Made by a program: the position numbers and the translations under genes
Notes under the pieces: model-generated
Databases searched by the model: none
Seen by the model: the letters and a program-made list of their open reading frames with translations, nothing else
What the model was told of the DNA's origin: nothing
Shown: in pieces, positions 24,547-60,228 of the stretch
Position numbering within the stretch: position 1 is the stretch's first letter
Layout of the letters: each line of letters begins with the position of its first letter
From: Candidatus Heimdallarchaeum aukensis
GTDB taxonomy: Archaea; Asgardarchaeota; Heimdallarchaeia; Heimdallarchaeales; Heimdallarchaeaceae
Assembly: GCA_021513695.1 (NCBI GenBank)
Contig: CP084166.1
Span: 1,312,001-1,376,000, forward strand
Direction of reading: 5' to 3'
DNA: 64,000 bases

Positions 24547-25509
24547 TCACCTTTTCTTTTGTTTTATATATAAAGCAATAATTGCAACCACGGATAACGG
24601 ACCAATAATTATTAGAAAGATGACCGGTAGGCTTGTAGTCTTGTAAAAGTAATTAAGTAAATTGTTTACAAATAGTTTTCCTTGTATGGGACTACCGTGT
24701 TCTCCCTCTTCTCCATACATATTTTTATATGTACTGAATAGTACTTCTCCAGAAACAATAAGATGTGATTCTCCAAAGTCTTCGTATACTACAGCGGGAT
24801 AATTTCCTTTTTCATCTAGAGAGATGTAGAAATCACTTTCAGTGTTACTATAATCTTGATCTAACATTTCAGCAGACTCATTATAAGAGAACAGGACTTC
24901 TATTCCTTCAATTGTTTGTGTTCGTAAATCGACAAAATTTCCATTTTCCATTCCATATACAGCTGTTGGGCCATGAAGTAATAGCCTTTCTACTCCTTCA
25001 TTTACAACAGAACCGATATCTCCTGTTCCAGGATTGGTTGCAATAACACGGTATCCTGTACCGTCATTAGAGTATAGGTCAGAAACTGCACCAGAATCTA
25101 ATCTCAATTTAGAATCAATGTATTCTAGTAATGGATTAATGGACTTATGTGAGATAAATTGACCTGCATAATCAGAGTCCCCTGCTATCCATAGCAATTT
25201 ATCAGGATTTGAAAACCATGTTTTAATAACATTCATTTCATCCGAAGTGTAGTTTATTCTAGAAGCAGGAATTAGTAACATATCATAATCGTTAATATTC
25301 GTGAAATTTTCGATTTCATCGACAATATTACCACTTTCTAAGTAATCAGTTTTAAAAAGATCATAGGTTATATGCATAGGAGAGTGGCCAATGTCAATAG
25401 CTATCTTCTTTTTAGATAACCTAATTTCTGAAGCTTGTACTAAAACCACAAAAGAAATTTGTTCAGTGACTAAAAATAATAAAAATAAAGTTGTTAATAT
25501 TTTTTTCAT
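24547..25509 (-). CDS. secreted protein of unknown function, paralogue A (signal peptide; C-terminal TM plus basic tail)
   Basis: shares blocks with 25687-26676: IDIGHSPMH, WF..GDSDY.G.F, RLDS...SD...NDG..YRV.A..PGTGD, GNYPAVV...G.S.L...GE..F..YK.MY, FVNNL.NYF. Confidence 0.6.
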   Translation of the reverse strand: MKKILTTLFLLFLVTEQISFVVLVQASEIRLSKKKIAIDIGHSPMHITYDLFKTDYLESGNIVDEIENFTNINDYDMLLIPASRINYTSDEMNVIKTWFSNPDKLLWIAGDSDYAGQFISHKSINPLLEYIDSKLRLDSGAVSDLYSNDGTGYRVIATNPGTGDIGSVVNEGVERLLLHGPTAVYGMENGNFVDLRTQTIEGIEVLFSYNESAEMLDQDYSNTESDFYISLDEKGNYPAVVYEDFGESHLIVSGEVLFSTYKNMYGEEGEHGSPIQGKLFVNNLLNYFYKTTSLPVIFLIIIGPLSVVAIIALYIKQKKR

Positions 25510-25686: not shown

Positions 25687-26676
25687 ATGAAAAAAACAAT
25701 TGTAGGCCTACTTCTAATAGTGACAATTTTAGCCACTGTCCCTTCAACTTTTGCTTATGACACATCAATCAAAGTAAAAAATAAAACAATCATGATTGAT
25801 GTAAGTCATGGAGCATATCATACATCAGTTGAAAATTTCAAGGGAAATCTTACTGAAGCAAAGAATACAGTAGTAATGCTAGAGAGCGATCTCTTGACTA
25901 ACTTTACTGCTGAAGCTGATGCTCTGTTCATGTCAGGACCAGACGAAATGTATACTGGTGAAGAAACCGAAAAGATCAAGGATTGGTTCAACCAAGGAGG
26001 AAAATTCCTCTTCATTGGTGGAGATTCTGACTACGGTGGTTACTTCTCTCCAGTAGCTATAAACAACCTTCTAAGAAACTTAGGAGCTAACATTAGATTA
26101 GACAGTACATCAATCAGTGATGAAAATAACAACGACGGAGCATCATACAGAGTTGCAGCTACTCAACCAGGTACTGGTGATGTTGCTACAAAGGTAACAG
26201 AAGGTATGGAAGCTGGTTTCATTCTTCATGGACCATGTTCTATACTTGGAATCAACACTTCAACAGCAGTTCCTGAATATCTTGACCTAAGAACTGCAAC
26301 ACTTCCTAATGTTGAAGTTTTATACAAATATTCAGCAGATGCTGTATCAAGTGACAGTGACGTTAGTGGATTGCCAACTGACTTATATGCAGAGTCTGAC
26401 ACAACTGGAAACTATCCAGCTGTAGTCTTAGAAACAATTGGCAATTCATACTTAGTATTAGCTGGTGAAGCCATCTTCACTGACTATAAGTCTATGTATG
26501 ATCAATTCACTGAAACTGGAGAATATAATGGCGGAGTAACCTATGGACAAATGTTCGTTAATAACCTAATTAACTACTTCCTAGGTGAAGCTCAAGCTCC
26601 ATTACCAATTGCTCCAGTTGTTGCTGCCTTAGCTTTATTTGGTGGCGCATTAGTCATTGTTAGAAGAAGAAAGTAA
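25687..26676 (+). CDS. secreted protein of unknown function, paralogue B (signal peptide; C-terminal TM plus RRRK tail), divergently transcribed from paralogue A
   Basis: same conserved blocks as 24547-25509; C-terminus APVVAALALFGGALVIVRRRK. Confidence 0.6.
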   Translation: MKKTIVGLLLIVTILATVPSTFAYDTSIKVKNKTIMIDVSHGAYHTSVENFKGNLTEAKNTVVMLESDLLTNFTAEADALFMSGPDEMYTGEETEKIKDWFNQGGKFLFIGGDSDYGGYFSPVAINNLLRNLGANIRLDSTSISDENNNDGASYRVAATQPGTGDVATKVTEGMEAGFILHGPCSILGINTSTAVPEYLDLRTATLPNVEVLYKYSADAVSSDSDVSGLPTDLYAESDTTGNYPAVVLETIGNSYLVLAGEAIFTDYKSMYDQFTETGEYNGGVTYGQMFVNNLINYFLGEAQAPLPIAPVVAALALFGGALVIVRRRK

Positions 26677-28537: not shown

Positions 28538-29248
28538 CTATTGGTTTAAAAAATAAATTATTACACTAATCGATAATGGAATATAAAGATTATCAAATAA
28601 GTTTTTACAAATAAATTCTAAGACAGTAGCGAATATTGCTAATAGAAAGATAATAAGAAAGTTCTCAATAATACTGATTTTGTACATATAATAAGTAATT
28701 GTTAAAGCTGTAAGAGAACCCAGAAAAACAGCAAATGAGCCTTCTAAGGTTTTTGGATAGTTTCTAATGACTTTGGATTTTCCGAAAGATCGACCCACAA
28801 GTTCTCCCATTCCATCGCCAAGAGATAAGACAAATATTCCTCCCACAAAAGCGAAAGGAGAATCAAGAGTTATGAAAAAAACGTAAATTAGCATTAAAGC
28901 AGTCAGAATAATATTTATACCTAATTCTTTTTTTGGTTCATCGATTCTATGATCTTTTGAAATAAAGAAATCAAATAATTTTATTGACGGAATTATTGAC
29001 AAAATACCCACAATCAGAACAGAAATAAAAAAGATTGCTAAAATGTCATAAAAATTAGTGTTTAGAGCTCTTAAAATTCCAATATAAAGGAGAAAGGACA
29101 TATGATCAAGTTTCCTTTTTCTCCAAGAGCAGAGCTTGGTTTTTGAAAGTAAAAAAGAAGCTAAAAAAAGAAAAGCAAGTCCTAGTACTGATAGAAAAAT
29201 TGACACCCAATTCATTTCTTTGTAATCGAAAATCATTATCAGGTTCAT
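28538..29248 (-). CDS. CdsA/CarS/dolichol-kinase-family membrane protein (CTP-dependent polyprenol kinase-like)
   Basis: SLGDGMGELVGRSFGKSKVIRNYPKTLEGSFAVFLGS matches the CdsA-type C-terminal motif; 6-7 TM helices. Confidence 0.55.
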   Translation of the reverse strand: MNLIMIFDYKEMNWVSIFLSVLGLAFLFLASFLLSKTKLCSWRKRKLDHMSFLLYIGILRALNTNFYDILAIFFISVLIVGILSIIPSIKLFDFFISKDHRIDEPKKELGINIILTALMLIYVFFITLDSPFAFVGGIFVLSLGDGMGELVGRSFGKSKVIRNYPKTLEGSFAVFLGSLTALTITYYMYKISIIENFLIIFLLAIFATVLEFICKNLFDNLYIPLSISVIIYFLNQ

Positions 29249-29277: not shown

Positions 29278-32200
29278 TTAGACCCCAGTTATTGCTTCTG
29301 TTCTTGAGCCAAGAATGATATTTGTAAATACTAGACTAAGTATTTGTAGGAACATTAAGATTACTCCTAAAGCACAGAATATTTGAAACCTTGCATTAAC
29401 TTGATTTGCCATCATCCATGTTAATGTTCCACCAAGTTCTGAAGTGATTAGAAAAACTGTAGTTGAGACTTCAGACAAGCAGTACAAGAACGAAACAAGA
29501 CTTCCTGCGAACACATTAAGAGAAATCATAGGTACAGTTATTTTTGCAAAAGTTTTCATTCTTCCAGCTCCCAGATTAAAGGAAGACTCTTCTAGCACTT
29601 TATCCATCTGTTGTAAACCAGCATATGCTGCTCTAACTGTGAATGGGAATTTTCTAATTGTATATGAGAGTACTAAAAGTACATAAGCGATACCCACAAA
29701 AGGATCAAGGTGCGCTTTTACTACAAATTTATTCATAAACAAGTTAAATGAATTAGGATTGTTAGTGAAAATTGTACCCCAATCAAAAGTTCGATAATAT
29801 CCAAGCGCTAAAACGATTCCAGGTATAGCAATTGGAACAGTAACCAGTGAGTCAAAAGCTGCTTTTCCTTTAAACTCTTTTCTACTCACCACATAAGCTG
29901 CCAATGAGCCTAAAATAACAATTAATATTGTTGCAGCAAAACTGTAAAGTAGAGTATTTCGGACAAAACTTGGAATATTATACTGCGAAGATACAAAGAT
30001 AAGTCTATAATTTTCTAAAGTAAAACTCATGTTTTTTATATTAGATGAACCTAGTGTTTCGCTAATTGACATCATTATTATACCAACATGTACGATTAAA
30101 GAAAGTGCGAATAGGATAACAAGGAATGGATAAATAATCAACAACTTCCATTTTGCTTTACTTAACCTATATTGGCCTGCACGCCCCTTAGAAACCATAG
30201 AATACTGTCTTAGCGAAACATATTTTCGTATAACTAGAAATCCTGCTATAGCAATCACTAACAGAAGACCACCCAAGACACATACTTCTGGAGTTATAAT
30301 GTTAGAACTTGAAAGTTGAAAATCAGAAAAGATGTAGTATGTTAGAAATTGCCTTGCAAAATTATCTCCCATACCAACGAAGATAATTGGTGTTCCTACA
30401 TCTTCCATTGATAATATAAGTACTAAAATAGCTCCTGCACCAATACCAGGAAGAGCTAGAGGTAAAGTCACAGTAAAGAATAATCTAAAACTACCAGCTC
30501 CAAGGTTTTCAGCTTGTTCTTCCATACTTGGGTCAACATTAACAAATGAAGAGAAAGCGTTTAAATAAACTAAAGCATAAAAATGAAAACTTTGTACAAA
30601 GCAAATTGCAACAAAACCTTCAATAATAAATCTTGAATGGAAGACTGGAATAAGGAAGAGGGTATTAAGTAATCCATTAGGGCCTAAGAAATATCTGAAA
30701 CCCATTCCGCTAATAAAGGGTGGAATAATTAAAGGAGCGAGGGCTAAAACACTGAAGAACTTCTTTCCAGGAAATTCGTACCTAGCTAAAATAAAAGCTA
30801 ATGATGTTCCTAATAGAACTGAAATAAGAGTGGTAACAAGGCCAAGAATTAATGTGTTTAGAACAATTCCCCTTGATACACCTACTAGCTTGTAAGTTGT
30901 AATCTCAATATTATCTTGATATTGGTATATTTTTTCAAATTCTGTCATATCATGAGTATCTAGAATTAGTACTCCATCACCCCCATTTGCAACATATACA
31001 AAATCAGTTATTGGGTCATAAAATATATCTTCTACACCAACTATTCCTAAACTATAGGATAAAAGGTGAGATATATTGTACGGATTTGTAACATTATAAG
31101 CTTCTATACTATAAAAGTCTCCAATTTTCGAAGTTATAAATGCTTTATTATTAAAAACGTTGATATTATCTGCACGCCTGTTTTCTCTGTGAACCAAAGT
31201 AATGTTAGAAGGGTCTGAAATATCAAGAACTACGAAACCTGTACTTCCCAGTGACAAATATGCGTAATCATCAATAATTTGTATTTCTTTTGCTCTCAAA
31301 CTTATACCGTCGATCTCTTCCACTCTTGAATATAAAGAAGGATTCGAGGGGTCAGAAATATCAAAAATCATTAACCTTGAATATGAACCAACTAAATAAG
31401 CATAATTATCTTTAATTTTAATATCATCTGAATCTGTCTCTAATGTAGCGTTTCCAATTAGTTCTGGGGCAGATGGATCACTTATATCATAAATTAAGAA
31501 ACCATCATCTTGATAGTCAAGAAAAGCGTAATTATCATGTATAGTAATAAATTCTGTTTTATTGGTGGGTAAAGGAGTTATGGATACAATGTCTGTACCT
31601 TCACCAACATCGCTTACATTGAAAATCATTAATCCCTGTCTTGAATCTGAAGCAAATAGTAGTTCTCCACGTTGTTCAATATCTGTTACAAAACTATTAT
31701 CAAATTTTATTTGGTTGATTTCCTCAACATTATTGTAATCAGTTACATTTAGAACTTCAATCCCTTCAAAACCCTCTGCGGTATAGATATAACCATTTGA
31801 ATAGAGTATAGACTTTGCATAACCTCCAAATTCATAATTCTGGTTTTTTGTAAAAAATGAAGTTGAGGAATCACCTTTAAAATTAAAGAATTTTTCATCA
31901 GAAAAAACACGACCAAAAGCGTAAAAAGTTATTTGACCTGACTCTTCTAAATAAATTGCAACATTTATCAAATATTCTCCTGTTCCTTTATTTGAGTAAA
32001 CAACTATATCCCATGTTACGATACCTGTTTCAGGAAGATCAGGAGATTTAATGACCACGCGTTCATTTTTTGTGTTTGAAGGATAATATTTTGCATTTGG
32101 TATCGAATTTTCTTTTACTTCTGTATTTAAGTTTCCACCTGTACGCCTATCTTGATGATCAATTACAGACAAATCAAAATCTGATCCTTTTGGCGTTTGA

Positions 32201-32514
32201 AGAAAAATGACAATTTTTCCAATTCCCTCTGTTGCATTAATATCAAACGTGTGATAAGGTCCTGTTTGATGAACAGTAGTTATTTCTCCTCTGAAGGCAA
32301 ATGTTTCTGCTGCACTTGGTATATAAACTGCACCAGAAAGTATCAAAAGGAGAGGTATAACCATCCAAATAATAAAGACAATAGAAACAATAGCAATAAT
32401 CACATTAGTTGAAGGGTCTCTTAAAAGCTTTACATAAAGCGTGTCAATAATCTTTCTCTTTCTTTTTAGCTTTTTTCTTTCTGATTTTTTCTTATTTAAA
32501 CTTAAAGTGGCCAT
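29278..32514 (-). CDS. fusion protein: N-terminal TM plus extracellular LVIVD-repeat beta-propeller (about 550 aa) plus two tandem ABC-transporter permease domains (FbpB/iron(III)-type double permease)
   Basis: at least 6 LVIVD-type blades (DNYAYLVGSYSRLMIFDISDPSNPSL, DDYAYLSLGSTGFVVLDISDPSNITL, DFVYVANGGDGVLILD ...); two EAA permease motifs (EEQAENLGAGSFRLFFTVTLPLALPG and LEESSFNLGAGRMKTFAKITVPMISLN). Confidence 0.7.
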   Translation of the reverse strand: MATLSLNKKKSERKKLKRKRKIIDTLYVKLLRDPSTNVIIAIVSIVFIIWMVIPLLLILSGAVYIPSAAETFAFRGEITTVHQTGPYHTFDINATEGIGKIVIFLQTPKGSDFDLSVIDHQDRRTGGNLNTEVKENSIPNAKYYPSNTKNERVVIKSPDLPETGIVTWDIVVYSNKGTGEYLINVAIYLEESGQITFYAFGRVFSDEKFFNFKGDSSTSFFTKNQNYEFGGYAKSILYSNGYIYTAEGFEGIEVLNVTDYNNVEEINQIKFDNSFVTDIEQRGELLFASDSRQGLMIFNVSDVGEGTDIVSITPLPTNKTEFITIHDNYAFLDYQDDGFLIYDISDPSAPELIGNATLETDSDDIKIKDNYAYLVGSYSRLMIFDISDPSNPSLYSRVEEIDGISLRAKEIQIIDDYAYLSLGSTGFVVLDISDPSNITLVHRENRRADNINVFNNKAFITSKIGDFYSIEAYNVTNPYNISHLLSYSLGIVGVEDIFYDPITDFVYVANGGDGVLILDTHDMTEFEKIYQYQDNIEITTYKLVGVSRGIVLNTLILGLVTTLISVLLGTSLAFILARYEFPGKKFFSVLALAPLIIPPFISGMGFRYFLGPNGLLNTLFLIPVFHSRFIIEGFVAICFVQSFHFYALVYLNAFSSFVNVDPSMEEQAENLGAGSFRLFFTVTLPLALPGIGAGAILVLILSMEDVGTPIIFVGMGDNFARQFLTYYIFSDFQLSSSNIITPEVCVLGGLLLVIAIAGFLVIRKYVSLRQYSMVSKGRAGQYRLSKAKWKLLIIYPFLVILFALSLIVHVGIIMMSISETLGSSNIKNMSFTLENYRLIFVSSQYNIPSFVRNTLLYSFAATILIVILGSLAAYVVSRKEFKGKAAFDSLVTVPIAIPGIVLALGYYRTFDWGTIFTNNPNSFNLFMNKFVVKAHLDPFVGIAYVLLVLSYTIRKFPFTVRAAYAGLQQMDKVLEESSFNLGAGRMKTFAKITVPMISLNVFAGSLVSFLYCLSEVSTTVFLITSELGGTLTWMMANQVNARFQIFCALGVILMFLQILSLVFTNIILGSRTEAITGV

Positions 32515-32585
32515 TATGTAGTCTTTTTATTATGTCTTTTAATATTTTTCTCAAAGGAAGAAAAAAGAAATAAAATAGAAAAACT

Positions 32586-34082
32586 CTATCTTCGCTTCCT
32601 TCTTAGTACAATAACAAGAGTTGCAAAACCAATAATTGAGAACAATGTTGATACAGGTGTTTTTGTAGGAGTTTCTGTTGTATTATCTTCTCCTGGAATT
32701 CTACCGATTTCATCAATTATTGCATTATATTTTTGTTTAGCAAAATTCTTCCATTCACTTCTCTTTGCTGAAGCAAAGTTGGGGTCGGTTTGAAATTCAT
32801 CATTCCATTCAATTGATTCGTTTAATGTCATTCCTACCTCAGTCAACTGAGCACTTAGCTCTTCAAATTTTTCTTGTGTAATATTACCGTCTTTTAGCCT
32901 TAAAACCATTGATCCCCAAGCTTCTCTTAGAAGATCATGATTTGCTGTAATTGTTTCATGGAAATAGTAAATTGTTGTATCCAAGTTAGAAACTGCGAGT
33001 TCTTCATCAAAGACAATTCCTTCATTATCTAAAGTTTCATTATACAGTGCGTAAAGAGCTTGACCATTTTCAGTTTGACCAGCATCTGTGTGGAAAGCAG
33101 ATTCTAATACAGGTAACCTATCTAATCCCTCTGTAAACCAAACAGCTTGACCTTCTGGGGATTCTACAAATTTAATAAAAGCTTTTGCAGCTTCATAATC
33201 ATCAACATTAGCACCGAGAGCGATGGGATCACCATTGACAATTGATTGACCTTCTGGAATTATATATTCACAATTGGGATTTTCTCTCATTGCGATAACT
33301 CCATAAAAGTCTATTGTCATAGCAACTCCTACTTCACCATTAATAACAGCTGCACGAGTATCTACAGAACCAGGATAAATACCAGCATTAGCACCCATCT
33401 TGGTTATAATCGCCCATCCTTTTTCCCATCCAAATGCTTGAAGAATAATTTGGTAAATCCTTGTATTAGAAGTTGTTTCAGGTGGATCACCCATGCTTAT
33501 GGCTCGAACATCAGGGGAAACATAGAACTCGGGAGAAGCTAGTTCTTCCCATGTATGAGGAACTGGAAGACCTTTATCACTTAAAAATTGATGATTGACA
33601 GTGAAACCAAAGGAGGAAATTGCGGAAGCAACAAACAAAAGGTTGTTATCTTCATCCCACCACTTCATTGCAGCTCCTGCAATTCTATCAGGAACTGTTT
33701 CATTTAGATAGTTTAGTAAATCAGGGTCATCTATAGGTTTAAGAGCTTTATAATTGGCCATTGTACTAAATAAAGCTGGTCCTCCTCCCCAAGCTACATC
33801 TACACCCTTTGAGGCATCTTTGAGTAGACTTCTCCAACCATCATCAGTACTTACTGATTTAAAATCAATATCACTAATTCCTAGATTTTGAGCTTCTTCA
33901 GTAGCTAAGAATTTCTCCTTAAATTCATTTGTAATAGTTACGTCGTGTCTCGTAACAACTGTAAGAACGATATCGCCTTTCAAATCAGATTGATTATCTC
34001 TTGTTATATCTCCGTTAACTGCTGCAGTTGAGGATACAGCAATTAAAATAACGAGGATAAGAAAATTAATTTCTCTTTTCAT
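32586..34082 (-). CDS. ABC-transporter substrate-binding protein (family-1 type) with signal peptide and C-terminal TM anchor, co-directional upstream of the permease fusion
   Basis: 498 aa; secreted; C-terminus LFSIIGFATLVIVLRRKRR; position in operon. Confidence 0.5.
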   Translation of the reverse strand: MKREINFLILVILIAVSSTAAVNGDITRDNQSDLKGDIVLTVVTRHDVTITNEFKEKFLATEEAQNLGISDIDFKSVSTDDGWRSLLKDASKGVDVAWGGGPALFSTMANYKALKPIDDPDLLNYLNETVPDRIAGAAMKWWDEDNNLLFVASAISSFGFTVNHQFLSDKGLPVPHTWEELASPEFYVSPDVRAISMGDPPETTSNTRIYQIILQAFGWEKGWAIITKMGANAGIYPGSVDTRAAVINGEVGVAMTIDFYGVIAMRENPNCEYIIPEGQSIVNGDPIALGANVDDYEAAKAFIKFVESPEGQAVWFTEGLDRLPVLESAFHTDAGQTENGQALYALYNETLDNEGIVFDEELAVSNLDTTIYYFHETITANHDLLREAWGSMVLRLKDGNITQEKFEELSAQLTEVGMTLNESIEWNDEFQTDPNFASAKRSEWKNFAKQKYNAIIDEIGRIPGEDNTTETPTKTPVSTLFSIIGFATLVIVLRRKRR

Positions 34083-34260: not shown

Positions 34261-35838
34261 ATGATAATAATGAAAAAACAAGTAATTTCACTTATTTCAT
34301 TACTACTAATTTTTAGTATGATTCATTCAAATTACTCTGTTAGTTATACTTCAACTGATAGAGATTTAGAAATAATAAACTCTGAAACTAAAGAAATGCC
34401 TAGTTACAACAAAGTTGTTTTCATAACATGGGATGGTGTTCGAGAAAAATGGTTTGAAGAACTTACAGCTGACAATACCTTGGGAAATGCTAGTAAAGTT
34501 GTTCAATTAGGTCATCTACAAAAAGTAAGGATTACCACCCATATAACTTCAACAGACCCAGGATTGAGTACTATGGAAACTGGATACGGTGACGCTATTC
34601 ATGGAATATCAGCAAATCAATTCGGCCCTGGCTCTCCTAAATTAAGCATCCCTGATGGACTAACAACAACAGAAAGGTTGAAAGCTGCTTTTGGAGATAA
34701 TATTAAAACAGGAATGTTCTTGCCTTGGTCTTTTCACCAAATAAACGAAGAATATATGATGCAAGAAGGAAATTATACCGATACTATTTTTGCAAATATA
34801 AAAATTGGTGTAGATGTAGATTATTGGTTTGCTTCTGAAAATTTAAGTTGGACACCAGATGATAATGAATCTCTTAGAGCAATATATGAGGGATACTCCA
34901 ACGATAATCATGGTTTTCATCCTGATGTAGGTATGTTTTCAGATCCTTTGATTAAAAGCTCGTATCTTGCTGAGCAGATAACCAAATTCTTGGATTTATA
35001 TGCAGATGATTCTTTCTATATAAGAACTCACTTCACAGAACCAGATACAGTTGGACATGGATATTTCGAATCAAAAGATGGAGTCATAACACCAGAATAC
35101 AAAACTGCACTGATACAGTGTGACGAGGCATTAGGAATCATATTAAATAAACTTGAAGAAGAAGGAATTTTAGAAGATACATTAGTTATTGTTGGAACAG
35201 ACCATGGTTTCTATAAAGAGTCTCACGATGGAGAACCTTGGCCTAATGGAAAAATAGCAGTCACTCAACAGGTTTTTGCAATAAGTAAGAATGATGTTAA
35301 GACCAGTCAGGATATTGCAATTGCTCAAATGGACATTGCTCCCACAATACTATCAGTTTTAGGAGTGGATATTTCTACTTTGACTCCTGCGTACACAGGA
35401 GAAGATGAAACAGGAATACCTATCTGGGATAAAATTGATGATGATGCACCTAGATTAATTAAAGTTCAATATCAACTAGAAACACAATACATTCCTAGAG
35501 ATTTCGAAAACGGTTCTAAAATTAATGAACCATTTGATCTATACTTACAAATAAATGAATGGAGTGACATCAAAGCAGTTTCTATGAAAACTGAAGATGA
35601 CAAAATAATCGAACCTTCATCGATATCGAATACTCAAATAATCTGGGAAAAACTAGACAAGAGTGTGCTTGGAGGAGGTTCTCATAGTTTAGTCGTTACA
35701 ATTACAGATGAGTTCGATTTGACTACTCAAATAACTATAAACATTAATGCTGGAGGAGTTAGTTATAGCTGGTTCTATTCAGTTATTGCTTTGTCCCTAG
35801 TTGCTATTCCAATACTTGTAAAGAGATACAAAAAATAA
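34261..35838 (+). CDS. alkaline-phosphatase-superfamily enzyme (type I phosphodiesterase/nucleotide pyrophosphatase or sulfatase-like), secreted, C-terminal TM anchor
   Basis: metal-ligand motifs VFITWDGVREKWF and IVGTDHGF; signal peptide; C-terminus WFYSVIALSLVAIPILVKRYKK. Confidence 0.6.
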   Translation: MIIMKKQVISLISLLLIFSMIHSNYSVSYTSTDRDLEIINSETKEMPSYNKVVFITWDGVREKWFEELTADNTLGNASKVVQLGHLQKVRITTHITSTDPGLSTMETGYGDAIHGISANQFGPGSPKLSIPDGLTTTERLKAAFGDNIKTGMFLPWSFHQINEEYMMQEGNYTDTIFANIKIGVDVDYWFASENLSWTPDDNESLRAIYEGYSNDNHGFHPDVGMFSDPLIKSSYLAEQITKFLDLYADDSFYIRTHFTEPDTVGHGYFESKDGVITPEYKTALIQCDEALGIILNKLEEEGILEDTLVIVGTDHGFYKESHDGEPWPNGKIAVTQQVFAISKNDVKTSQDIAIAQMDIAPTILSVLGVDISTLTPAYTGEDETGIPIWDKIDDDAPRLIKVQYQLETQYIPRDFENGSKINEPFDLYLQINEWSDIKAVSMKTEDDKIIEPSSISNTQIIWEKLDKSVLGGGSHSLVVTITDEFDLTTQITININAGGVSYSWFYSVIALSLVAIPILVKRYKK

Positions 35839-35856: not shown

Positions 35857-36300
35857 TTAAATTTGTCCCCAAGAAATAAATTTTCCATCTTTTCTCTTAA
35901 CTAAAACAGAGCCAAATTTTCTCCATTGCTCTTCTCTAAATCTAATAATTTGGTAGTCGTCTGGTGTAGTTTTCTTTTTTAGTTGAAGTAGTTCTGAAAG
36001 CGAGAGTTTTTTCTCATAAAAAAGCCGAGTAATATATTTCCCTTCTTTCTCTCCCAGATCCACTTCTTTTGCGATGTTTAACAAATGTAAAACAGGAAGG
36101 TTAGAAAAAAGAGATGAGTGAGAAGAAGTATATACAGAACCTGGACATATAGGTTCATTTTTGTATTCCTCCACGCATTTCTCACAGAAAATTAATTGGC
36201 ATCCGTTACATATTTTCCATTGTTCAAGTACAGCCTCTTTTAGTGGAGATTGGTTTTTACAAAACGCACATTGGACATAATAATCTAAAATATTAGTCAC
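35857..36300 (-). CDS. Zn-ribbon protein, last gene of the SMC operon
   Basis: CAFCKN...CNGCQLIFCEKC; 4-nt overlap with the upstream gene. Confidence 0.45.
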   Translation of the reverse strand: MTNILDYYVQCAFCKNQSPLKEAVLEQWKICNGCQLIFCEKCVEEYKNEPICPGSVYTSSHSSLFSNLPVLHLLNIAKEVDLGEKEGKYITRLFYEKKLSLSELLQLKKKTTPDDYQIIRFREEQWRKFGSVLVKRKDGKFISWGQI

Positions 36301-36875
36301 AGTTTCTCATACTCCTCTTTAATTTTTATTCTTTCATCTTCATCAAACTCAAGGAGAGTTCTATAGTTATAATCTATAAAATTTGATTTTTTTCTAATAT
36401 AACCTTTATATGTAAGAGATCTTATGCTTTCATTTACTAAATACTCCTTGAGATAATCATTAGATGTTAAGAACTCTTTAATTTTTTTAGTCGTTATCTT
36501 TTTCTCTGATTCTCTTAAACCTATTATTACTCCCAAAACAGTTAATTCTGCTTCATTTAATTCTGGAGGAGCAAAATAGTTGGATTTTAGGCATAACCAG
36601 GTTTCAACACCTATTTTGTAATAAACTAATTCTAGCCCCAGAATTGAAATAAAAGCTTGATACTCTTCTAGAATGTGTTCAAGTGTTGCTATGTCGACTC
36701 TGGTTACTATTAATAGATCTTGTTGAGAAACGCCAAAAACTTCAACATTATCTTTAATCCATCGTCTGGTTAATATCGTTGTTAATTCTCTAAAAAGTTC
36801 TTGCCGTTCTTTATCTGTAATTAATGGAGATAATTTTTGTTCTTTATCTGTATTATTGTTTTCCATTTTATTCAT
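36297..36875 (-). CDS. ScpB-sized winged-helix protein (candidate kite subunit)
   Basis: 192 aa; overlaps neighbours by 4-8 nt; size and position downstream of SMC and a ScpA-sized gene; the assignment rests on size and position only. Confidence 0.35.
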   Translation of the reverse strand: MNKMENNNTDKEQKLSPLITDKERQELFRELTTILTRRWIKDNVEVFGVSQQDLLIVTRVDIATLEHILEEYQAFISILGLELVYYKIGVETWLCLKSNYFAPPELNEAELTVLGVIIGLRESEKKITTKKIKEFLTSNDYLKEYLVNESIRSLTYKGYIRKKSNFIDYNYRTLLEFDEDERIKIKEEYEKL

Positions 36876-37563
36876 CTTCTTCTTTTTTTGATGATAAAAG
36901 GAGTGAACTTGACATCACAGCTCCCTCTTCAGATGAGGGTTTACAAAAACATATCTTATCTCCATCAGAGACAGCAATTAGTTTCTTTTCAGATGTCATC
37001 TTTGAAAGCACTTCCAATTCTATGGAACTCAATAACTTTTCGAGTTCACTTTTTCTCATTTCTTTATTCAACAATTTTTCTTCTACTTGTTTTTCTAAAC
37101 TCATAAGATCACCATAAGTTAATATTTCAGACTCAAGCTTTTTGTCTCGTCTTATATCCCAGAAATCGTATTTTTCATCAATTTTGGGTTTAATTGTCAG
37201 TTTTTCTGGTTTCTCAAGTTGAAATATAGAATAGGGGGATGTCTTTTTTCCTATTACAGAAATTAAAGGAGTGGCATTTTTTCTTACAAAATTAGAAAAA
37301 GACTTTATCCTACTTTTACTTTTCAGAATGTTTTCTAAATTAAGTTCTTCTCTAAGTTCATGCATTAAAATATAGTCTTCATAAACCTCTGCATCCAATA
37401 TTTTTTCTCTGTTTTGCATTAGATATTGATAAATGTCAGAAGTTTGTTCTCTATCCTTTTCTGACTCTTCAACAGATAATGAAATCTTCTTTTTTAATAA
37501 TTTCTTGTATTTTTTTTCAATTTCAAAAAGTGTAAGCAAGAGAACATCATAGTCTTCTTCCAT
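36868..37563 (-). CDS. ScpA-sized protein (candidate kleisin subunit)
   Basis: 231 aa; start overlaps the SMC stop by 1 nt; acidic C-terminus. Confidence 0.35.
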   Translation of the reverse strand: MEEDYDVLLLTLFEIEKKYKKLLKKKISLSVEESEKDREQTSDIYQYLMQNREKILDAEVYEDYILMHELREELNLENILKSKSRIKSFSNFVRKNATPLISVIGKKTSPYSIFQLEKPEKLTIKPKIDEKYDFWDIRRDKKLESEILTYGDLMSLEKQVEEKLLNKEMRKSELEKLLSSIELEVLSKMTSEKKLIAVSDGDKICFCKPSSEEGAVMSSSLLLSSKKEEDE

Positions 37564-58257: not shown

Positions 58258-60228
58258 TTGTTCCGAGAACTAAATGTTCAAAAAATTGCAGAACAACTAA
58301 CAATTGTCCCAGAAGAGATTAAAGAATACATACGCTTTCTTATTCAAAGCATGGTTTTGAGAGGTTTTTATAAAAAAGAAACATTTTATGTAAATGCTTT
58401 TTATTTGTGGCCATTTGTTGAATCAGTAAATTTTAATGAAAGTCAGTATATAATTATGGGGTTATTGTCTTCGAGAAGAGTTATGCCTTTTACAGATGTA
58501 GCTAATTTTTTAAAAATAACTAAAGAGCAATTAATAGCACAACTAGAGACTTTAATTTATCATGGAGTTGTAATTTGTTACATTAAAAGAAATAAAATAA
58601 TTACTGACTGGCTATGGAGACCACCAGATGAAATTAAAGTCTCTGAACAAGATGTTCATATAATTGGAACTGCAATGATGCTTAGAAAAGCTAAAATCAA
58701 AGATATTGCTAAATTTTTAAAATATTCTGAAGAAGAAGTTGTCCAGAAAATTTCTAAATTGCTACTTTTTAGAAAGGTAGAAGCTGAATTTATCCTTAAA
58801 ACTAAATTTTTTGCTAAAGATACCATATCAATTATTGTTAGAAAATTCATTATTCAACCAGAAAAGAAAGAACTGAGCTTACTTCCAGTAAACGAAAAGG
58901 AAATCATAGGATTTCTTTTATTAACAAAAAAAGCGAAGTTAAAATCGATAAGCCGATTTATAGAAAAACCAATTAATGAAACAGTAAAACTACTAGCTTC
59001 ATTAACAGCAAAAGGAACATTTCAATTCATTTTTTCATCAAAGAAAACAGTTAGCCCCGTTATAATACCAGATATAAAACCTAAAAGAACTATTGAAGAA
59101 ATGGCTTCATTATCTTTCTTTAACTATGAAGCATTGTTAGGTATGTTAACTACAAGAAAGAGGATAAAAGTCAAGAAACTCTCTTTTTGGATGAATAGAG
59201 AAGACGACGAAATAATCGAGGCATTAATTAACTTATATTTGGAAGGATTCATTTCATGTACTTTGGTAAAGAAGGTAGTATATATTGAAGGGATATATCA
59301 ATATAGTAGAACACAAGAGGGAAGTTTAGAACGGTGGGAAAAAATAATTCTAGGAATGGTTATAGCTAAAACCATAATCTCTGTAAAAGATATTAGTAAA
59401 TCATTTGGTACTGATAAACTTATAGCACGTGAAAAACTGTATTCTTTTTATGGAAAGGGTCTAATAAAAGGAGAACTACATGATTTTAGAATTAATACAA
59501 AATTAATTCCAGAGGAAATTCCTGTGTTTCCTCCTTTGAATCAAATCGAAGATTTTCCAATTCACTATCAAGAAATTTTTGGATATATTATTTCAAATAT
59601 TACTGTAAACGTTTCAAAAATGGCTAAAATATGGAACAAAAGCAAAAACGCGATTAAAAATATTATTTATGAATTAACAGGGGCTGGTGTAATTAATGTC
59701 ATACAAAATCGTAACGTCTTTATTCTACAATCAGCTCAAAAATATTATCCAACACAAGAAATAAACGCTTTAGGACATGAATATGTTCAGATTATAAATG
59801 AAATTGAAAAAAGCAGGAGAAGAAGAGTAAGAATTGAGCACATTCAAAAACGAGTAAACATCCCTCAGATCGATATTTTCAAGATTATTTGTCAATTATT
59901 AGCTCATGGCTACTATAGAGGAACAATTTCTGAAAAAGTTTTTATTAGAAAAGGAAAGCTTATTGTTCCTGTTGGCAAACTCAAATGCTATTACTGCGGA
60001 CATACTATAGAAGACAGTCACCTATCATGTCCAAATTGTTCAAAGGCACAACCATTGTGTATCATCTGTAACGGGTTAATAAAAAGAGGACAAGAAGTTC
60101 TAGAATGTCCCAATTGTGAAAATGTTGGACATAAAGAACATATGCGAAAATGGATTTCTATAAAGGAAGAATGCCCAATTTGTAAAACTCAAATATCAAA
60201 GAGAAATCTAATAGAAAAAGTAGCGTAA
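58258..60228 (+). CDS. multi-winged-helix-repeat protein with C-terminal Zn-finger cluster (RING/treble-clef-like)
   Basis: about 6 repeated about 80-aa units with the WH-like pattern (L..KEQLIAQLETLIYHGVV); C-terminus CYYCGH...CPNC...CIICNG...CPNCENVGHKEH...CPICK. Confidence 0.45.
   Translation: MFRELNVQKIAEQLTIVPEEIKEYIRFLIQSMVLRGFYKKETFYVNAFYLWPFVESVNFNESQYIIMGLLSSRRVMPFTDVANFLKITKEQLIAQLETLIYHGVVICYIKRNKIITDWLWRPPDEIKVSEQDVHIIGTAMMLRKAKIKDIAKFLKYSEEEVVQKISKLLLFRKVEAEFILKTKFFAKDTISIIVRKFIIQPEKKELSLLPVNEKEIIGFLLLTKKAKLKSISRFIEKPINETVKLLASLTAKGTFQFIFSSKKTVSPVIIPDIKPKRTIEEMASLSFFNYEALLGMLTTRKRIKVKKLSFWMNREDDEIIEALINLYLEGFISCTLVKKVVYIEGIYQYSRTQEGSLERWEKIILGMVIAKTIISVKDISKSFGTDKLIAREKLYSFYGKGLIKGELHDFRINTKLIPEEIPVFPPLNQIEDFPIHYQEIFGYIISNITVNVSKMAKIWNKSKNAIKNIIYELTGAGVINVIQNRNVFILQSAQKYYPTQEINALGHEYVQIINEIEKSRRRRVRIEHIQKRVNIPQIDIFKIICQLLAHGYYRGTISEKVFIRKGKLIVPVGKLKCYYCGHTIEDSHLSCPNCSKAQPLCIICNGLIKRGQEVLECPNCENVGHKEHMRKWISIKEECPICKTQISKRNLIEKVA

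What the first reader, a model, noticed from the sequence alone, without database searches (positions are those of the whole stretch)
29278..34082. ABC importer whose double permease is fused to an extracellular LVIVD beta-propeller
The 1078-aa protein starts with a basic cytoplasmic N-terminus and a TM helix. It then has about 550 aa of extracellular sequence with at least 6 clear LVIVD repeats, followed by two BPD-type permease domains that each carry an EAA loop (FbpB-like double permease). A 498-aa anchored substrate-binding protein is encoded immediately upstream, and no ATPase is adjacent. A beta-propeller fused to a transporter permease is a highly unusual architecture. It suggests substrate capture or processing, or a cell-surface interaction, coupled directly to the translocator.
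Basis: partly seen in the sequence, partly recalled or inferred. Interest (0 to 1): 0.55.

Follow-up and report, generated by a model that had tools for sequence, protein, structure and literature searches.

The report
ABC importer permease carrying extracellular propeller
A nutrient-uptake (ABC importer) membrane protein of Heimdall-group Asgard archaea carries a large seven-bladed propeller domain inserted into one of its outward-facing loops, an arrangement found only in this lineage and not found described in the literature searched, and the transporter's usual ATPase gene has left the operon.

Summary
ORF 29278-32514 (-) encodes a 1078-aa fused double permease (2x BPD_transp_1, both EAA loops intact) with seven LVIVD repeats. 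A membrane-anchored substrate-binding protein (SBP) is encoded directly upstream, and no cognate ATPase lies within about 29 kb.

Three refinements:
1. The propeller is not an N-terminal add-on with an extra anchor helix. It is inserted in the first extracellular loop, between the canonical TM1 and TM2. This loop is 58-75 aa in about 100 relatives and about 500 aa here. It is the site equivalent to the MalF P2 loop.
2. This sub-clade also has a PPC/collagen-binding-type beta-jelly-roll (residues about 62-195) ahead of the propeller.
3. All 13 non-redundant propeller-bearing loci examined (Heimdallarchaeaceae, including Ca. Heimdallarchaeum endolithica and Heimdall AB_125) lack the ATPase gene. 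It directly follows the permease in all 40 short-loop relatives with enough downstream sequence.

It is not a frameshift artefact. There are 33 full-length protein clusters, and dN/dS is 0.07 for the propeller and 0.015 for the permease.

The propeller's function is unknown. The best guess is an extracellular docking or binding platform beside the SBP site on a still-functional importer whose ATPase acts in trans. I rate it a new variant of a known kind, of moderate interest.

The parts
32586..34082 (-). Substrate-binding protein (498 aa). It has an N-terminal signal-like segment, an SBP_bac_8/6/1 core and a C-terminal Thr-rich linker plus TM anchor plus RRKRR.
   Evidence: It lies immediately upstream of the permease in every propeller-bearing locus that has upstream sequence. 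The weak best matches are PhnS2 and, in the PDB, a PLP-binding SBP (6wce) and an Fe(III) SBP (8x1a).
29278..32514 (-). Whole permease gene, 1078 aa plus stop codon.
   Evidence: It is 100% identical to P0001 (Heimdallarchaeaceae MAG). Its 90% cluster includes the Ca. Heimdallarchaeum aukensis and endolithica proteins.
32347..32514 (-). Basic cytoplasmic N-terminus (residues 1-37) and canonical TM1 (residues 38-56) of the first permease half.
   Evidence: There are 12 K/R in residues 1-30. The columns at residues 47, 50 and 54 are nearly invariant across 112 homologues, including short-loop forms.
31930..32331 (-). PPC / collagen-binding-domain-type beta-jelly-roll (residues about 62-195). It is present only in the 1076-1096-aa forms.
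31840..31929 (-). Remnant of the ancestral loop 1 (residues 196-225, motif F..F.D..FFNF.GD), shared with short-loop homologues.
   Evidence: F204 is nearly invariant in the 112-sequence family alignment. The same motif is visible in short-loop proteins.
30886..31839 (-). Seven-bladed LVIVD beta-propeller (residues 226-543), extracellular.
30175..30885 (-). First permease half, TM2-TM6 (residues 544-780), with EAA loop 1 at about residues 659-689 (nt 30448-30540).
   Evidence: PF00528. Residue 550 aligns to ModB 2onk_C residue 73 and residue 551 to MalF residue 281. EAA residues E665, E666, A668-A673 are invariant.
29281..30174 (-). Second permease half, TM7-TM12 (residues 781-1078), with EAA loop 2 at about residues 965-995 (nt 29530-29622).
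   Evidence: PF00528 best stretch 866-1063. L974, E976 and N980-A983 are invariant. Foldseek's top PDB hit is the fused permease FbpB, 9j4r_A.
34261..35838 (+). Possible accessory gene. It encodes an anchored extracellular alkaline-phosphatase-superfamily enzyme (Phosphodiest/Sulfatase, 525 aa) and is divergent from the SBP gene.
   Evidence: Pfam. N-terminal signal-like and C-terminal anchor segments. It is a divergent neighbour of the SBP gene in 7 of 13 propeller-bearing loci. The link to the transporter is inferred only.
28538..29248 (-). Multi-TM protein (236 aa), 29 nt downstream on the same strand and possibly co-transcribed. It has no family assignment.
   Evidence: Homologues follow the permease only in L004/L005, L009 and L015.

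Best explanation
The gene encodes the membrane subunit of a binding-protein-dependent (type I) ABC importer of the fused double-permease kind (FbpB / ThiP / PhnU2-like, 6+6 TM helices).

In the Heimdallarchaeaceae lineage, the first extracellular loop between TM1 and TM2 of the first half was expanded from about 65 aa to 380-510 aa. This is the same site as the MalF P2 loop. The expansion is a seven-bladed LVIVD beta-propeller and, in some members including this one, a PPC-type beta-jelly-roll as well.

Shown:
- The architecture and the insertion site.
- The outside topology. This rests on a Kyte-Doolittle hydrophobicity scan, the positive-inside rule and homology, not on a dedicated topology predictor.
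- Purifying selection on every part.
- Retention of the adjacent anchored SBP.
- Unchanged EAA coupling loops.
- Clade-specific absence of the ATPase gene that directly follows the permease in all 40 short-loop relatives with enough downstream sequence.

Inferred:
- The protein still works as an SBP-dependent, ATP-driven importer, with its ATPase encoded elsewhere. A candidate is a Heimdall-specific clade of orphan TOBE-type ATPases that carry an insertion of about 50-150 aa.
- The ectodomain is a non-catalytic binding platform standing beside the SBP docking surface.
- My preferred specific role, at roughly 35%, is P2-like: holding or positioning the tethered SBP and possibly relaying its state.
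- The substrate is unresolved. The weak best matches are to phosphonate, PLP and Fe(III) systems, and a phosphoesterase gene is a frequent neighbour.
For: - Domains: Pfam; NCBIfam; best match is the fused permease PhnU2.
- Topology and site: (12 TMs, K/R-rich cytoplasmic loops). (residue 550 aligns to ModB TM2 and residue 551 to MalF residue 281, just after P2, which spans 91-276 per PMC6906923). (the P54-to-N553 distance is 58-75 aa in about 100 relatives, against 379 or about 500 aa here).
- Conservation: (33 full-length clusters with both domains, all Heimdall). (7 GTDB species). (permease 76-79% mean pairwise identity, propeller 43%). (dN/dS 0.07 for the propeller, 0.10 for the PPC domain, 0.015 for the permease).
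- Fold: (the top Foldseek PDB hit is FbpB 9j4r; the propeller matches generic 7-bladed propellers). (PPC jelly-roll).
- ATPase:. None of the 13 non-redundant propeller loci has an ATPase. All 40 short-loop loci with enough downstream sequence have one directly after the permease.
- EAA loops are invariant and match the family consensus.
- Orphan ATPase clade.
Against: - No direct evidence links the propeller to the SBP. SBPs from propeller loci have no clade-specific insertion or deletion compared with 40 other SBPs.
- The propeller evolves faster than the SBP: 31-34% against 55-61% identity between the long and short forms.
- The relative position of propeller and permease could not be assessed. 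Whole-model pTM is 0.52 and neither coordinates nor PAE were available.
- The in-trans ATPase is a candidate only. Presence in the same genome was not demonstrated.
- No dedicated topology predictor was available.
Confidence: 0.6

Rival explanations
1. Ligand-capture or adhesin module. The propeller (with or without the PPC domain) binds something other than the SBP and so concentrates substrate or localises the transporter. Candidates are a polymeric or particulate nutrient source, a cell-envelope component, or the surface of a partner cell.
For: - LVIVD propellers are typical modules of giant archaeal and bacterial surface proteins (PMC2447325). One example is a 986-aa anchored LVIVD protein in a MAG that also carries the orphan ATPase clade (L064).
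- PPC and collagen-binding domains are binding modules in proteases.
- The ectodomain evolves fast, as exposed surface domains do.
- The SBP shows no matching structural change.
Against: - No ligand can be named.
- The insertion sits inside the permease loop next to the SBP docking face rather than on a stalk.
- No carbohydrate-binding or other specific signature was found.
Confidence: 0.28
2. Catalytic pre-processing. The propeller is an enzyme (for example lactonase- or phosphotriesterase-like) that releases the transported solute at the mouth of the transporter.
For: - A phosphoesterase gene is a frequent neighbour.
Against: - Those matches are no better than matches to non-enzymatic WD40 propellers, at about 10-15% identity.
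- Invariant propeller positions are mostly G, F, L, I and P. Only E253 and E265 are invariant acidic residues, and no metal-site pattern is evident.
- I found no reported catalytic activity for LVIVD repeats (own knowledge; one search turned up none).
Confidence: 0.06
3. Repurposed permease. After losing its operon ATPase, the protein no longer transports. It serves instead as a membrane anchor or receptor for the displayed propeller.
For: The ATPase gene is absent from all 13 propeller loci but present in all 40 short-loop loci with enough downstream sequence.
Against: - The permease halves are the most constrained parts (dN/dS 0.015; 76-79% identity).
- Both EAA coupling loops are invariant and identical to the family consensus.
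- The SBP gene is always retained.
- A lineage-matched orphan ATPase clade exists.
Confidence: 0.05
4. Assembly or frameshift artefact joining a propeller gene to a permease gene.
For: None was found.
Against: - The same uninterrupted ORF appears in 33 full-length clusters from independent assemblies (NCBI, JGI, ENA, Logan), including two closed genomes.
- TM1 lies upstream of the insert and is homologous to TM1 of short-loop forms.
Confidence: 0.01

Closest known systems
MalF P2 loop of the E. coli maltose importer MalFGK2-E
   Same: - Both are type I ABC importer membrane domains with a folded extracytoplasmic domain inserted in the loop that precedes the core helix aligned here. Residue 551 aligns to MalF 281, and P2 spans 91-276.
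- P2 binds the SBP throughout the transport cycle.
   Different: - P2 is an Ig-like domain of about 180 aa. Here the insert is a 7-bladed propeller of about 320 aa plus a jelly-roll of about 130 aa.
- MalF is not a fused double permease and belongs to a different permease subfamily.
- SBP binding by the propeller is untested.
Fused double permeases FbpB / ThiP / PhnU2 (COG1178), e.g. Thermus thermophilus FbpBC (PDB 9j4r)
   Same: - Both have two BPD_transp_1 halves in one chain, with 12 TM helices and two EAA loops.
- FbpB is the best structural match (TMt 0.65) and sequence matches support the relationship.
- Relatives have the SBP-permease-ATPase operon.
   Different: - Scores are far below the equivalog cut-offs (PhnU2 138 bits against 593), so the substrate cannot be transferred.
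- The known members have a short loop 1.
- Here the operon lacks the ATPase.
Type VII ABC systems (MacB, LolCDE, FtsEX) with a large periplasmic domain between TM1 and TM2
   Same: A large extracytoplasmic domain lies between the first two TM helices of an ABC membrane subunit.
   Different: This comparison rests on my own knowledge and was not tested here.
- The membrane fold is unrelated (FtsX-type 4-TM).
- These systems use no SBP.
- They work by mechanotransmission rather than import.
SBP-fused permeases (GlnPQ, OpuA; the Bdellovibrio MalE-MalF fusion mentioned in PMC6906923)
   Same: An extracytoplasmic protein module is covalently attached to a type I importer permease.
   Different: - The fused module there is the SBP itself.
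- Here a separate SBP gene is retained, and the inserted module is a propeller with no SBP fold.
LVIVD-repeat cell-surface proteins of archaea and bacteria (Pfam PF08309; Adindla et al. 2004, PMC2447325)
   Same: They share the same repeat family and an extracellular location. They often combine the repeats with jelly-roll or Ig-like modules.
   Different: - Those are secreted or anchored multi-repeat surface proteins.
- Of the 135 newly retrieved proteins among the top 150 representative hits, none contains a permease core.

Membership tests
Type I ABC importer membrane domain (BPD_transp_1, PF00528) | Profile match above the Pfam gathering score | tested here: met
   52.9 bits against a 26.4 cut-off, in two stretches.
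Type I ABC importer membrane domain (BPD_transp_1, PF00528) | EAA coupling motif in a cytoplasmic loop between TM4 and TM5 of each half | tested here: met
   The motifs lie at about residues 659-689 and 965-995 in K/R-rich loops. They are invariant across the clade and match the family consensus.
Type I ABC importer membrane domain (BPD_transp_1, PF00528) | Cognate substrate-binding protein | tested here: met
   An SBP_bac_8/6/1 gene lies 71 nt upstream. The arrangement is conserved in all related loci with upstream sequence.
Type I ABC importer membrane domain (BPD_transp_1, PF00528) | Cognate ABC ATPase (nucleotide-binding subunit) | tested here: inconclusive
   None is in the operon or within about 29 kb. 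Candidate orphan ATPases exist in Heimdall MAGs, but presence in the same genome and physical pairing were not shown.
Fused double permease FbpB/ThiP/PhnU2 type | Two permease halves in one polypeptide, 12 TM helices, N- and C-termini inside | tested here: met
   Hydropathy scan and positive-inside pattern. PhnU2 profile positions 56-494 are matched. Foldseek gives FbpB 9j4r_A over 523 columns.
PhnU2 / WtpB / ModB equivalogs (substrate-specific NCBIfam models) | Score at or above the curated equivalog cut-off | tested here: not met
   PhnU2 scores 138 against 593, WtpB 138 against 340, and ModB 128.5 against 182.6. The database name 'WtpB' given to the AB_125 orthologue is therefore not supported.
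LVIVD repeat beta-propeller (PF08309) | Tandem repeats of about 42 aa matching the profile above its cut-off | tested here: met
   86-94 bits against a 20.2 cut-off. Seven cores with a 42-46 aa period.
LVIVD repeat beta-propeller (PF08309) | Beta-propeller fold | tested here: met
PPC (pre-peptidase C-terminal, PF04151) / collagen-binding domain | Sequence-profile match | tested here: not met
   There is no Pfam hit even at E<=10 on the isolated segment.
PPC (pre-peptidase C-terminal, PF04151) / collagen-binding domain | Beta-jelly-roll fold superposable on PPC/CBD domains | tested here: met
MalF-P2-type SBP-docking loop | Folded domain inserted in the extracytoplasmic loop preceding the equivalent core helix | tested here: met
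   Residue 551 aligns to MalF residue 281, and P2 spans 91-276.
MalF-P2-type SBP-docking loop | Ig-like fold homologous to P2 | tested here: not met
   The insert is a propeller plus a jelly-roll. The resemblance is analogy of position, not homology.
MalF-P2-type SBP-docking loop | Direct binding of the SBP | not testable with these tools
   Testing needs complex prediction or biochemistry. The only indirect test, for SBP indels specific to the propeller clade, was negative.

The most novel reading that the evidence does not exclude
In Heimdallarchaeaceae, an ordinary SBP-permease-ATPase importer was remodelled as a unit. The permease gained an extracellular propeller (with or without a jelly-roll) at the P2-equivalent site. 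At the same time, the ATPase gene left the operon and gained an insertion of about 50-150 aa in its helical subdomain, the part that contacts the EAA loops. On this reading the two changes are functionally coupled. They would create a new mode of ABC importer control in which binding of a surface ligand, or of the SBP, at the propeller is relayed across the membrane to a specialised ATPase. The result would be a receptor-gated importer, or a transporter that doubles as a surface receptor.
Probability: 0.12. Interest if true: 0.7.

Novelty: new variant of a known kind. Interest (0 to 1): 0.5.

Why it matters
- Type I ABC importers are among the best-understood transporters. The maltose review PMC6906923 calls the MalF P2 loop a unique extended periplasmic domain, and it is the only folded accessory domain at this site that I know of.
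- Here there is a far larger insertion of a different fold at the equivalent site. It is conserved and under purifying selection across a family of Asgard archaea, and it coincides with loss of the operon ATPase.
- It therefore offers a natural experiment on how extracytoplasmic domains modulate SBP docking and transmembrane coupling.
- The loop also appears to be a hotspot for accessory insertions. Kariarchaeaceae and Hodarchaeales relatives carry different inserts at the same site.
- Current database names for these proteins ('WtpB', 'iron ABC transporter permease') are unsupported.
- The importance is limited because the substrate and the propeller's ligand are unknown, and nothing ties the feature to eukaryogenesis.

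Tried and rejected
- Frameshift or misassembly: rejected.
- An extra N-terminal anchor helix: rejected in favour of the canonical TM1.
- N-glycosylation sequon enrichment as support for the outside location: there are 8 sequons in the ectodomain against 1 elsewhere, but this is not significant against shuffles (258/2000).
- Charge complementarity between propeller and SBP: all the extracellular proteins are equally acidic (pI about 4.1-4.4), so this is uninformative.
- SBP insertions specific to propeller loci: none found.
- Pfam on the jelly-roll segment and on the Kariarchaeaceae 271-aa insert: no hits.
- AFDB Foldseek search for the same architecture: the library was unavailable.
- Position of the propeller over the permease: not assessable. 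No coordinates or PAE were returned, and the permease part of the model has low confidence.
- Proof that the orphan ATPase and the propeller permease share a genome: not obtained. The assemblies seen differ (GCA_021399395.1 against GCA_030668825.1). NCBI accessions MCE7738325.1 and MCE7742049.1 are 3,724 apart, which is suggestive only.
- Literature searches ('LVIVD'; ABC transporter + permease + beta-propeller + periplasmic loop; Heimdallarchaeum + ABC transporter; FbpBC): nothing on this architecture.
- The 236-aa downstream membrane protein: no Pfam, NCBIfam or PDB match.


Full report
**1. What is in the sequence**

The minus strand carries two consecutive ORFs: 32586-34082 (498 aa) and 29278-32514 (1078 aa), separated by 71 nt.

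Pfam finds LVIVD repeats (PF08309, E=9e-25) and two BPD_transp_1 stretches (52.9 bits against a cut-off of 26.4) in the large protein. It finds SBP_bac_8/6/1/11 in the upstream one. NCBIfam's best match to the large protein is PhnU2, itself a fused double permease. The match covers profile positions 56-494 and so omits the model's first helix. The score of 138 bits is far below the equivalog cut-off of 593.

A motif scan finds seven LVIVD-type cores at residues 252, 295, 339, 381, 427, 470 and 515. They are spaced 42-46 residues apart. No other ORF of at least 100 aa in the six-frame translation of the window contains the motif.

**2. Topology and the true nature of the 'fusion'**

A hydropathy scan gives 12 TM segments:
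- The N-terminus has 12 K/R in 30 residues.
- TM1 is at residues 38-56.
- An acidic segment of 489 aa follows (33 K/R, 73 D/E).
- TM2 is at residues 550-568, followed by the remaining helices.
- Both EAA loops sit in K/R-rich loops.

Sequence comparison with solved structures aligns residue 550 to residue 73 of A. fulgidus ModB (TM2). It aligns residue 551 to MalF residue 281. The MalF P2 loop spans residues 91-276 between TM3 and TM4 (PMC6906923).

In a 112-sequence alignment with the closest relatives lacking LVIVD, the TM1 region is conserved; the columns at residues 47, 50 and 54 are nearly invariant. The distance from P54 to N553 is 58-75 residues in about 100 of them. It is 379 residues in the 955-998-aa propeller forms and 497-513 in the 1076-1096-aa forms.

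So the first helix is the permease's own TM1. The propeller is an insertion into the first extracellular loop, at the site equivalent to MalF-P2. By the positive-inside rule and by homology, the insertion is outside the cell.

**3. Structure prediction**

An AlphaFold2 model was built from 33 orthologues (mean pLDDT 65.6, pTM 0.52). Residues 226-543 form 28 strands, that is, seven four-stranded blades, at pLDDT 80-93. The membrane part is modelled at lower confidence.

Fold searches gave the following:
- Foldseek against the PDB puts the fused permease FbpB of Thermus thermophilus first (9j4r_A, TMt 0.65). Generic propellers follow.

**4. It is a real, conserved gene**

The word-indexed protein search found 33 full-length clusters (and one partial, P0034) carrying both PF00528 and PF08309. 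All are at 51-74% identity, and all named ones are Heimdallarchaeota or Heimdallarchaeaceae. Every weaker hit is a protein with LVIVD only.

The 90% cluster of the window's protein contains the proteins of the closed genomes Ca. Heimdallarchaeum aukensis (UJG41946.1) and Ca. H. endolithica (UJG44768.1). A 956-aa form is in Heimdall AB_125, where it is annotated 'WtpB'. Seven GTDB species representatives carry the fusion.

Mean pairwise identity is 76-79% for the permease halves, 43% for the propeller and 39% for the jelly-roll. Compared with the H. endolithica orthologue, dN/dS is 0.015 for the permease, 0.07 for the propeller and 0.10 for the jelly-roll. Every part is therefore under purifying selection, although the ectodomain is less constrained. 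Invariant propeller positions are mostly Gly and hydrophobic residues. E253 and E265 are the only invariant acidic residues.

An NJ tree of the permease core places the propeller forms as one clade nested among short-loop Heimdall-type permeases. The insertion is therefore derived. The jelly-roll forms are not monophyletic in this rough tree, so loss versus gain of that domain remains unresolved.

An exhaustive phmmer search used residues 57-640 against 1.84 billion representative proteins. Only P0016 and P0034, both from this family, matched across the propeller-permease junction. Of the other top-150 hits, 135 were newly retrieved proteins, and none contains a permease core. Only the top 150 of about 31,000 hits could be examined.

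**5. Operon structure**

tblastn across the fetched loci gives a sharp contrast:
- All 40 loci of short-loop relatives with enough downstream sequence read SBP-permease-ATPase. These relatives come from Heimdall BWSM_123, Thorarchaeota and many Thermoproteota. The ATPase (ABC_tran + TOBE_2, about 360-385 aa) begins within about 250 nt of the permease end.
- None of the 13 non-redundant propeller-bearing loci has an ABC ATPase within 3-10 kb downstream (7.6-10 kb for most). These loci are the window, L001, L002/L003, L004/L005, L009-L015, L068 and L075/L076; loci joined by a slash are near-identical copies.

In the window itself, the only ABC ATPase is a 247-aa ABC_tran-only protein 27 kb away. 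It has no TOBE domain and is 38% identical to the family's operon ATPase.

Both EAA coupling loops are invariant and identical to the family consensus. An ATPase partner is therefore still expected.

Searching with an operon ATPase revealed a distinct clade of 18 ATPase clusters (mean identity 74%):
- They are about 400-515 aa long and carry an insertion of about 50-150 aa in the helical subdomain.
- The only taxon names attached to them are Heimdallarchaeota and Heimdallarchaeaceae.
- They always sit between two metallo-beta-lactamase-fold genes, with no permease nearby.
- In an NJ tree they branch next to operon ATPases of this transporter family.

This clade is a plausible in-trans partner. 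However, I could not show that it occurs in the same genome as the propeller permease.

**6. Other context**

An anchored extracellular alkaline-phosphatase-superfamily enzyme (34261-35838) is divergently adjacent to the SBP gene in 7 of 13 propeller loci. A Kariarchaeaceae relative has an EEP-family phosphoesterase in the same position.

Three further weak hints point the same way: the PhnU2 and PhnS2 best matches and a PLP-binding SBP as the best PDB hit. Taken together, an organophosphorus substrate is possible. All of these scores are far below family thresholds, so the substrate remains unknown.

SBPs of propeller loci show no clade-specific insertion or deletion.

**7. Interpretation**

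The best-supported reading is a functional SBP-dependent importer whose loop 1 has acquired a non-catalytic extracellular binding platform.

Its position matches that of MalF-P2, which binds the SBP throughout the transport cycle. I therefore favour an SBP-holding or SBP-positioning role, at about 35%. A role in binding some other ligand or envelope component comes next, at about 28%. That rival is favoured by three observations: LVIVD plus jelly-roll combinations are typical of surface proteins, the domain evolves fast, and the SBP is unchanged. Catalysis, loss of transport function and artefact are all unlikely.

**8. Novelty**

The proteins are in public databases under generic or wrong names. 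I found no paper describing the architecture. It is a new variant of a known kind: a type I importer permease with an accessory extracytoplasmic domain. The lineage-specific loss of the operon ATPase accompanies it. Interest is moderate, at about 0.5.

Noticed in passing
L063-L067 and L077-L084 (e.g. L064:6001-7497, L065:6001-7530): A clade of orphan ABC ATPases (ABC_tran + TOBE_2, about 400-515 aa). They carry an insertion of about 50-150 aa in the helical subdomain, and the only taxon names attached are Heimdall. Each sits between a Lactamase_B gene and a Lactamase_B_3 gene, with no permease nearby. They are a candidate trans partner of the propeller permease.
   Followed up: partly
window 34261-35838 (+): A 525-aa alkaline-phosphatase-superfamily protein (Phosphodiest/Sulfatase) with an N-terminal signal-like segment and a C-terminal anchor. 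It is divergent from the SBP gene and is in the same position in 7 of 13 propeller loci. A Kariarchaeaceae relative (L008) has an Exo_endo_phos+fn3 protein there instead.
   Followed up: partly
window 25687-26676 (+) and 24547-25509 (-): Two proteins of about 320-330 aa with weak DUF4350 / GIFT (IFT52/GldG-like) / ABC_transp_aux matches. Homologues of the first also lie near the short-loop versions of this transporter in L007, L008 and L016. This hints at a recurrent association of GIFT-domain proteins with this ABC family.
   Followed up: no
P0163 / L008:8001-10603 (Kariarchaeaceae); P0172, P0180, P0182, P0184, P0191, P0193 (one is named Heimdallarchaeota; the related P0171 is named Hodarchaeales): Other relatives have different inserts at the same TM1-TM2 loop. 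One is an unassignable 271-aa Asp/Tyr-rich segment, accompanied by a second insert with two extra hydrophobic helices in the equivalent loop of the second half. The others carry about 155-164 aa containing two extra TM-like helices. The loop looks like an insertion hotspot.
   Followed up: partly
window 28538-29248 (-): A 236-aa multi-TM protein lies 29 nt downstream of the permease on the same strand. It has no Pfam, NCBIfam or PDB match. By eye, a GDG..E..GR.FGK......KT.EGS segment resembles polyprenol/dolichol-kinase or CdsA-type motifs. It follows the permease only in L004/L005, L009 and L015.
   Followed up: partly
window 35857-40541 (-): A conserved block made of an SMC-like ATPase (992 aa) followed by three small ORFs (231, 192 and 147 aa) with no family. 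The 147-aa ORF has very weak RING/zinc-finger-like matches. The block is syntenic with the transporter in nearly all Heimdallarchaeaceae loci.
   Followed up: no
window 58258-60228 (+): A 656-aa protein with weak winged-helix matches and a C-terminal zf-RING_2 match (E=2.5e-4, below the Pfam cut-off). It may be an Asgard RING-type protein.
   Followed up: no
window 40659-42611 (-) and 43396-46443 (-): Two large proteins (650 and 1015 aa) with only faint CARDB / Ig-like matches, probably surface proteins. The 1015-aa one is syntenic in related loci (L001, L002, L004).
   Followed up: no
L064:1339-4299: A 986-aa anchored surface protein with about 14 LVIVD repeats plus Ig/fn3-like modules, in the MAG contig that carries orphan ATPase P0347. 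It illustrates the kind of gene from which the permease's propeller could have been acquired.
   Followed up: no
Database annotation of orthologues (P0024 = OLS32763.1, Heimdall AB_125; several 'iron ABC transporter permease'): Names such as 'Molybdate/tungstate transport system permease protein WtpB' are not supported. The window's protein (about 55% identical to P0024) scores 138 bits against the WtpB cut-off of 340, and its domain architecture differs.
   Followed up: yes
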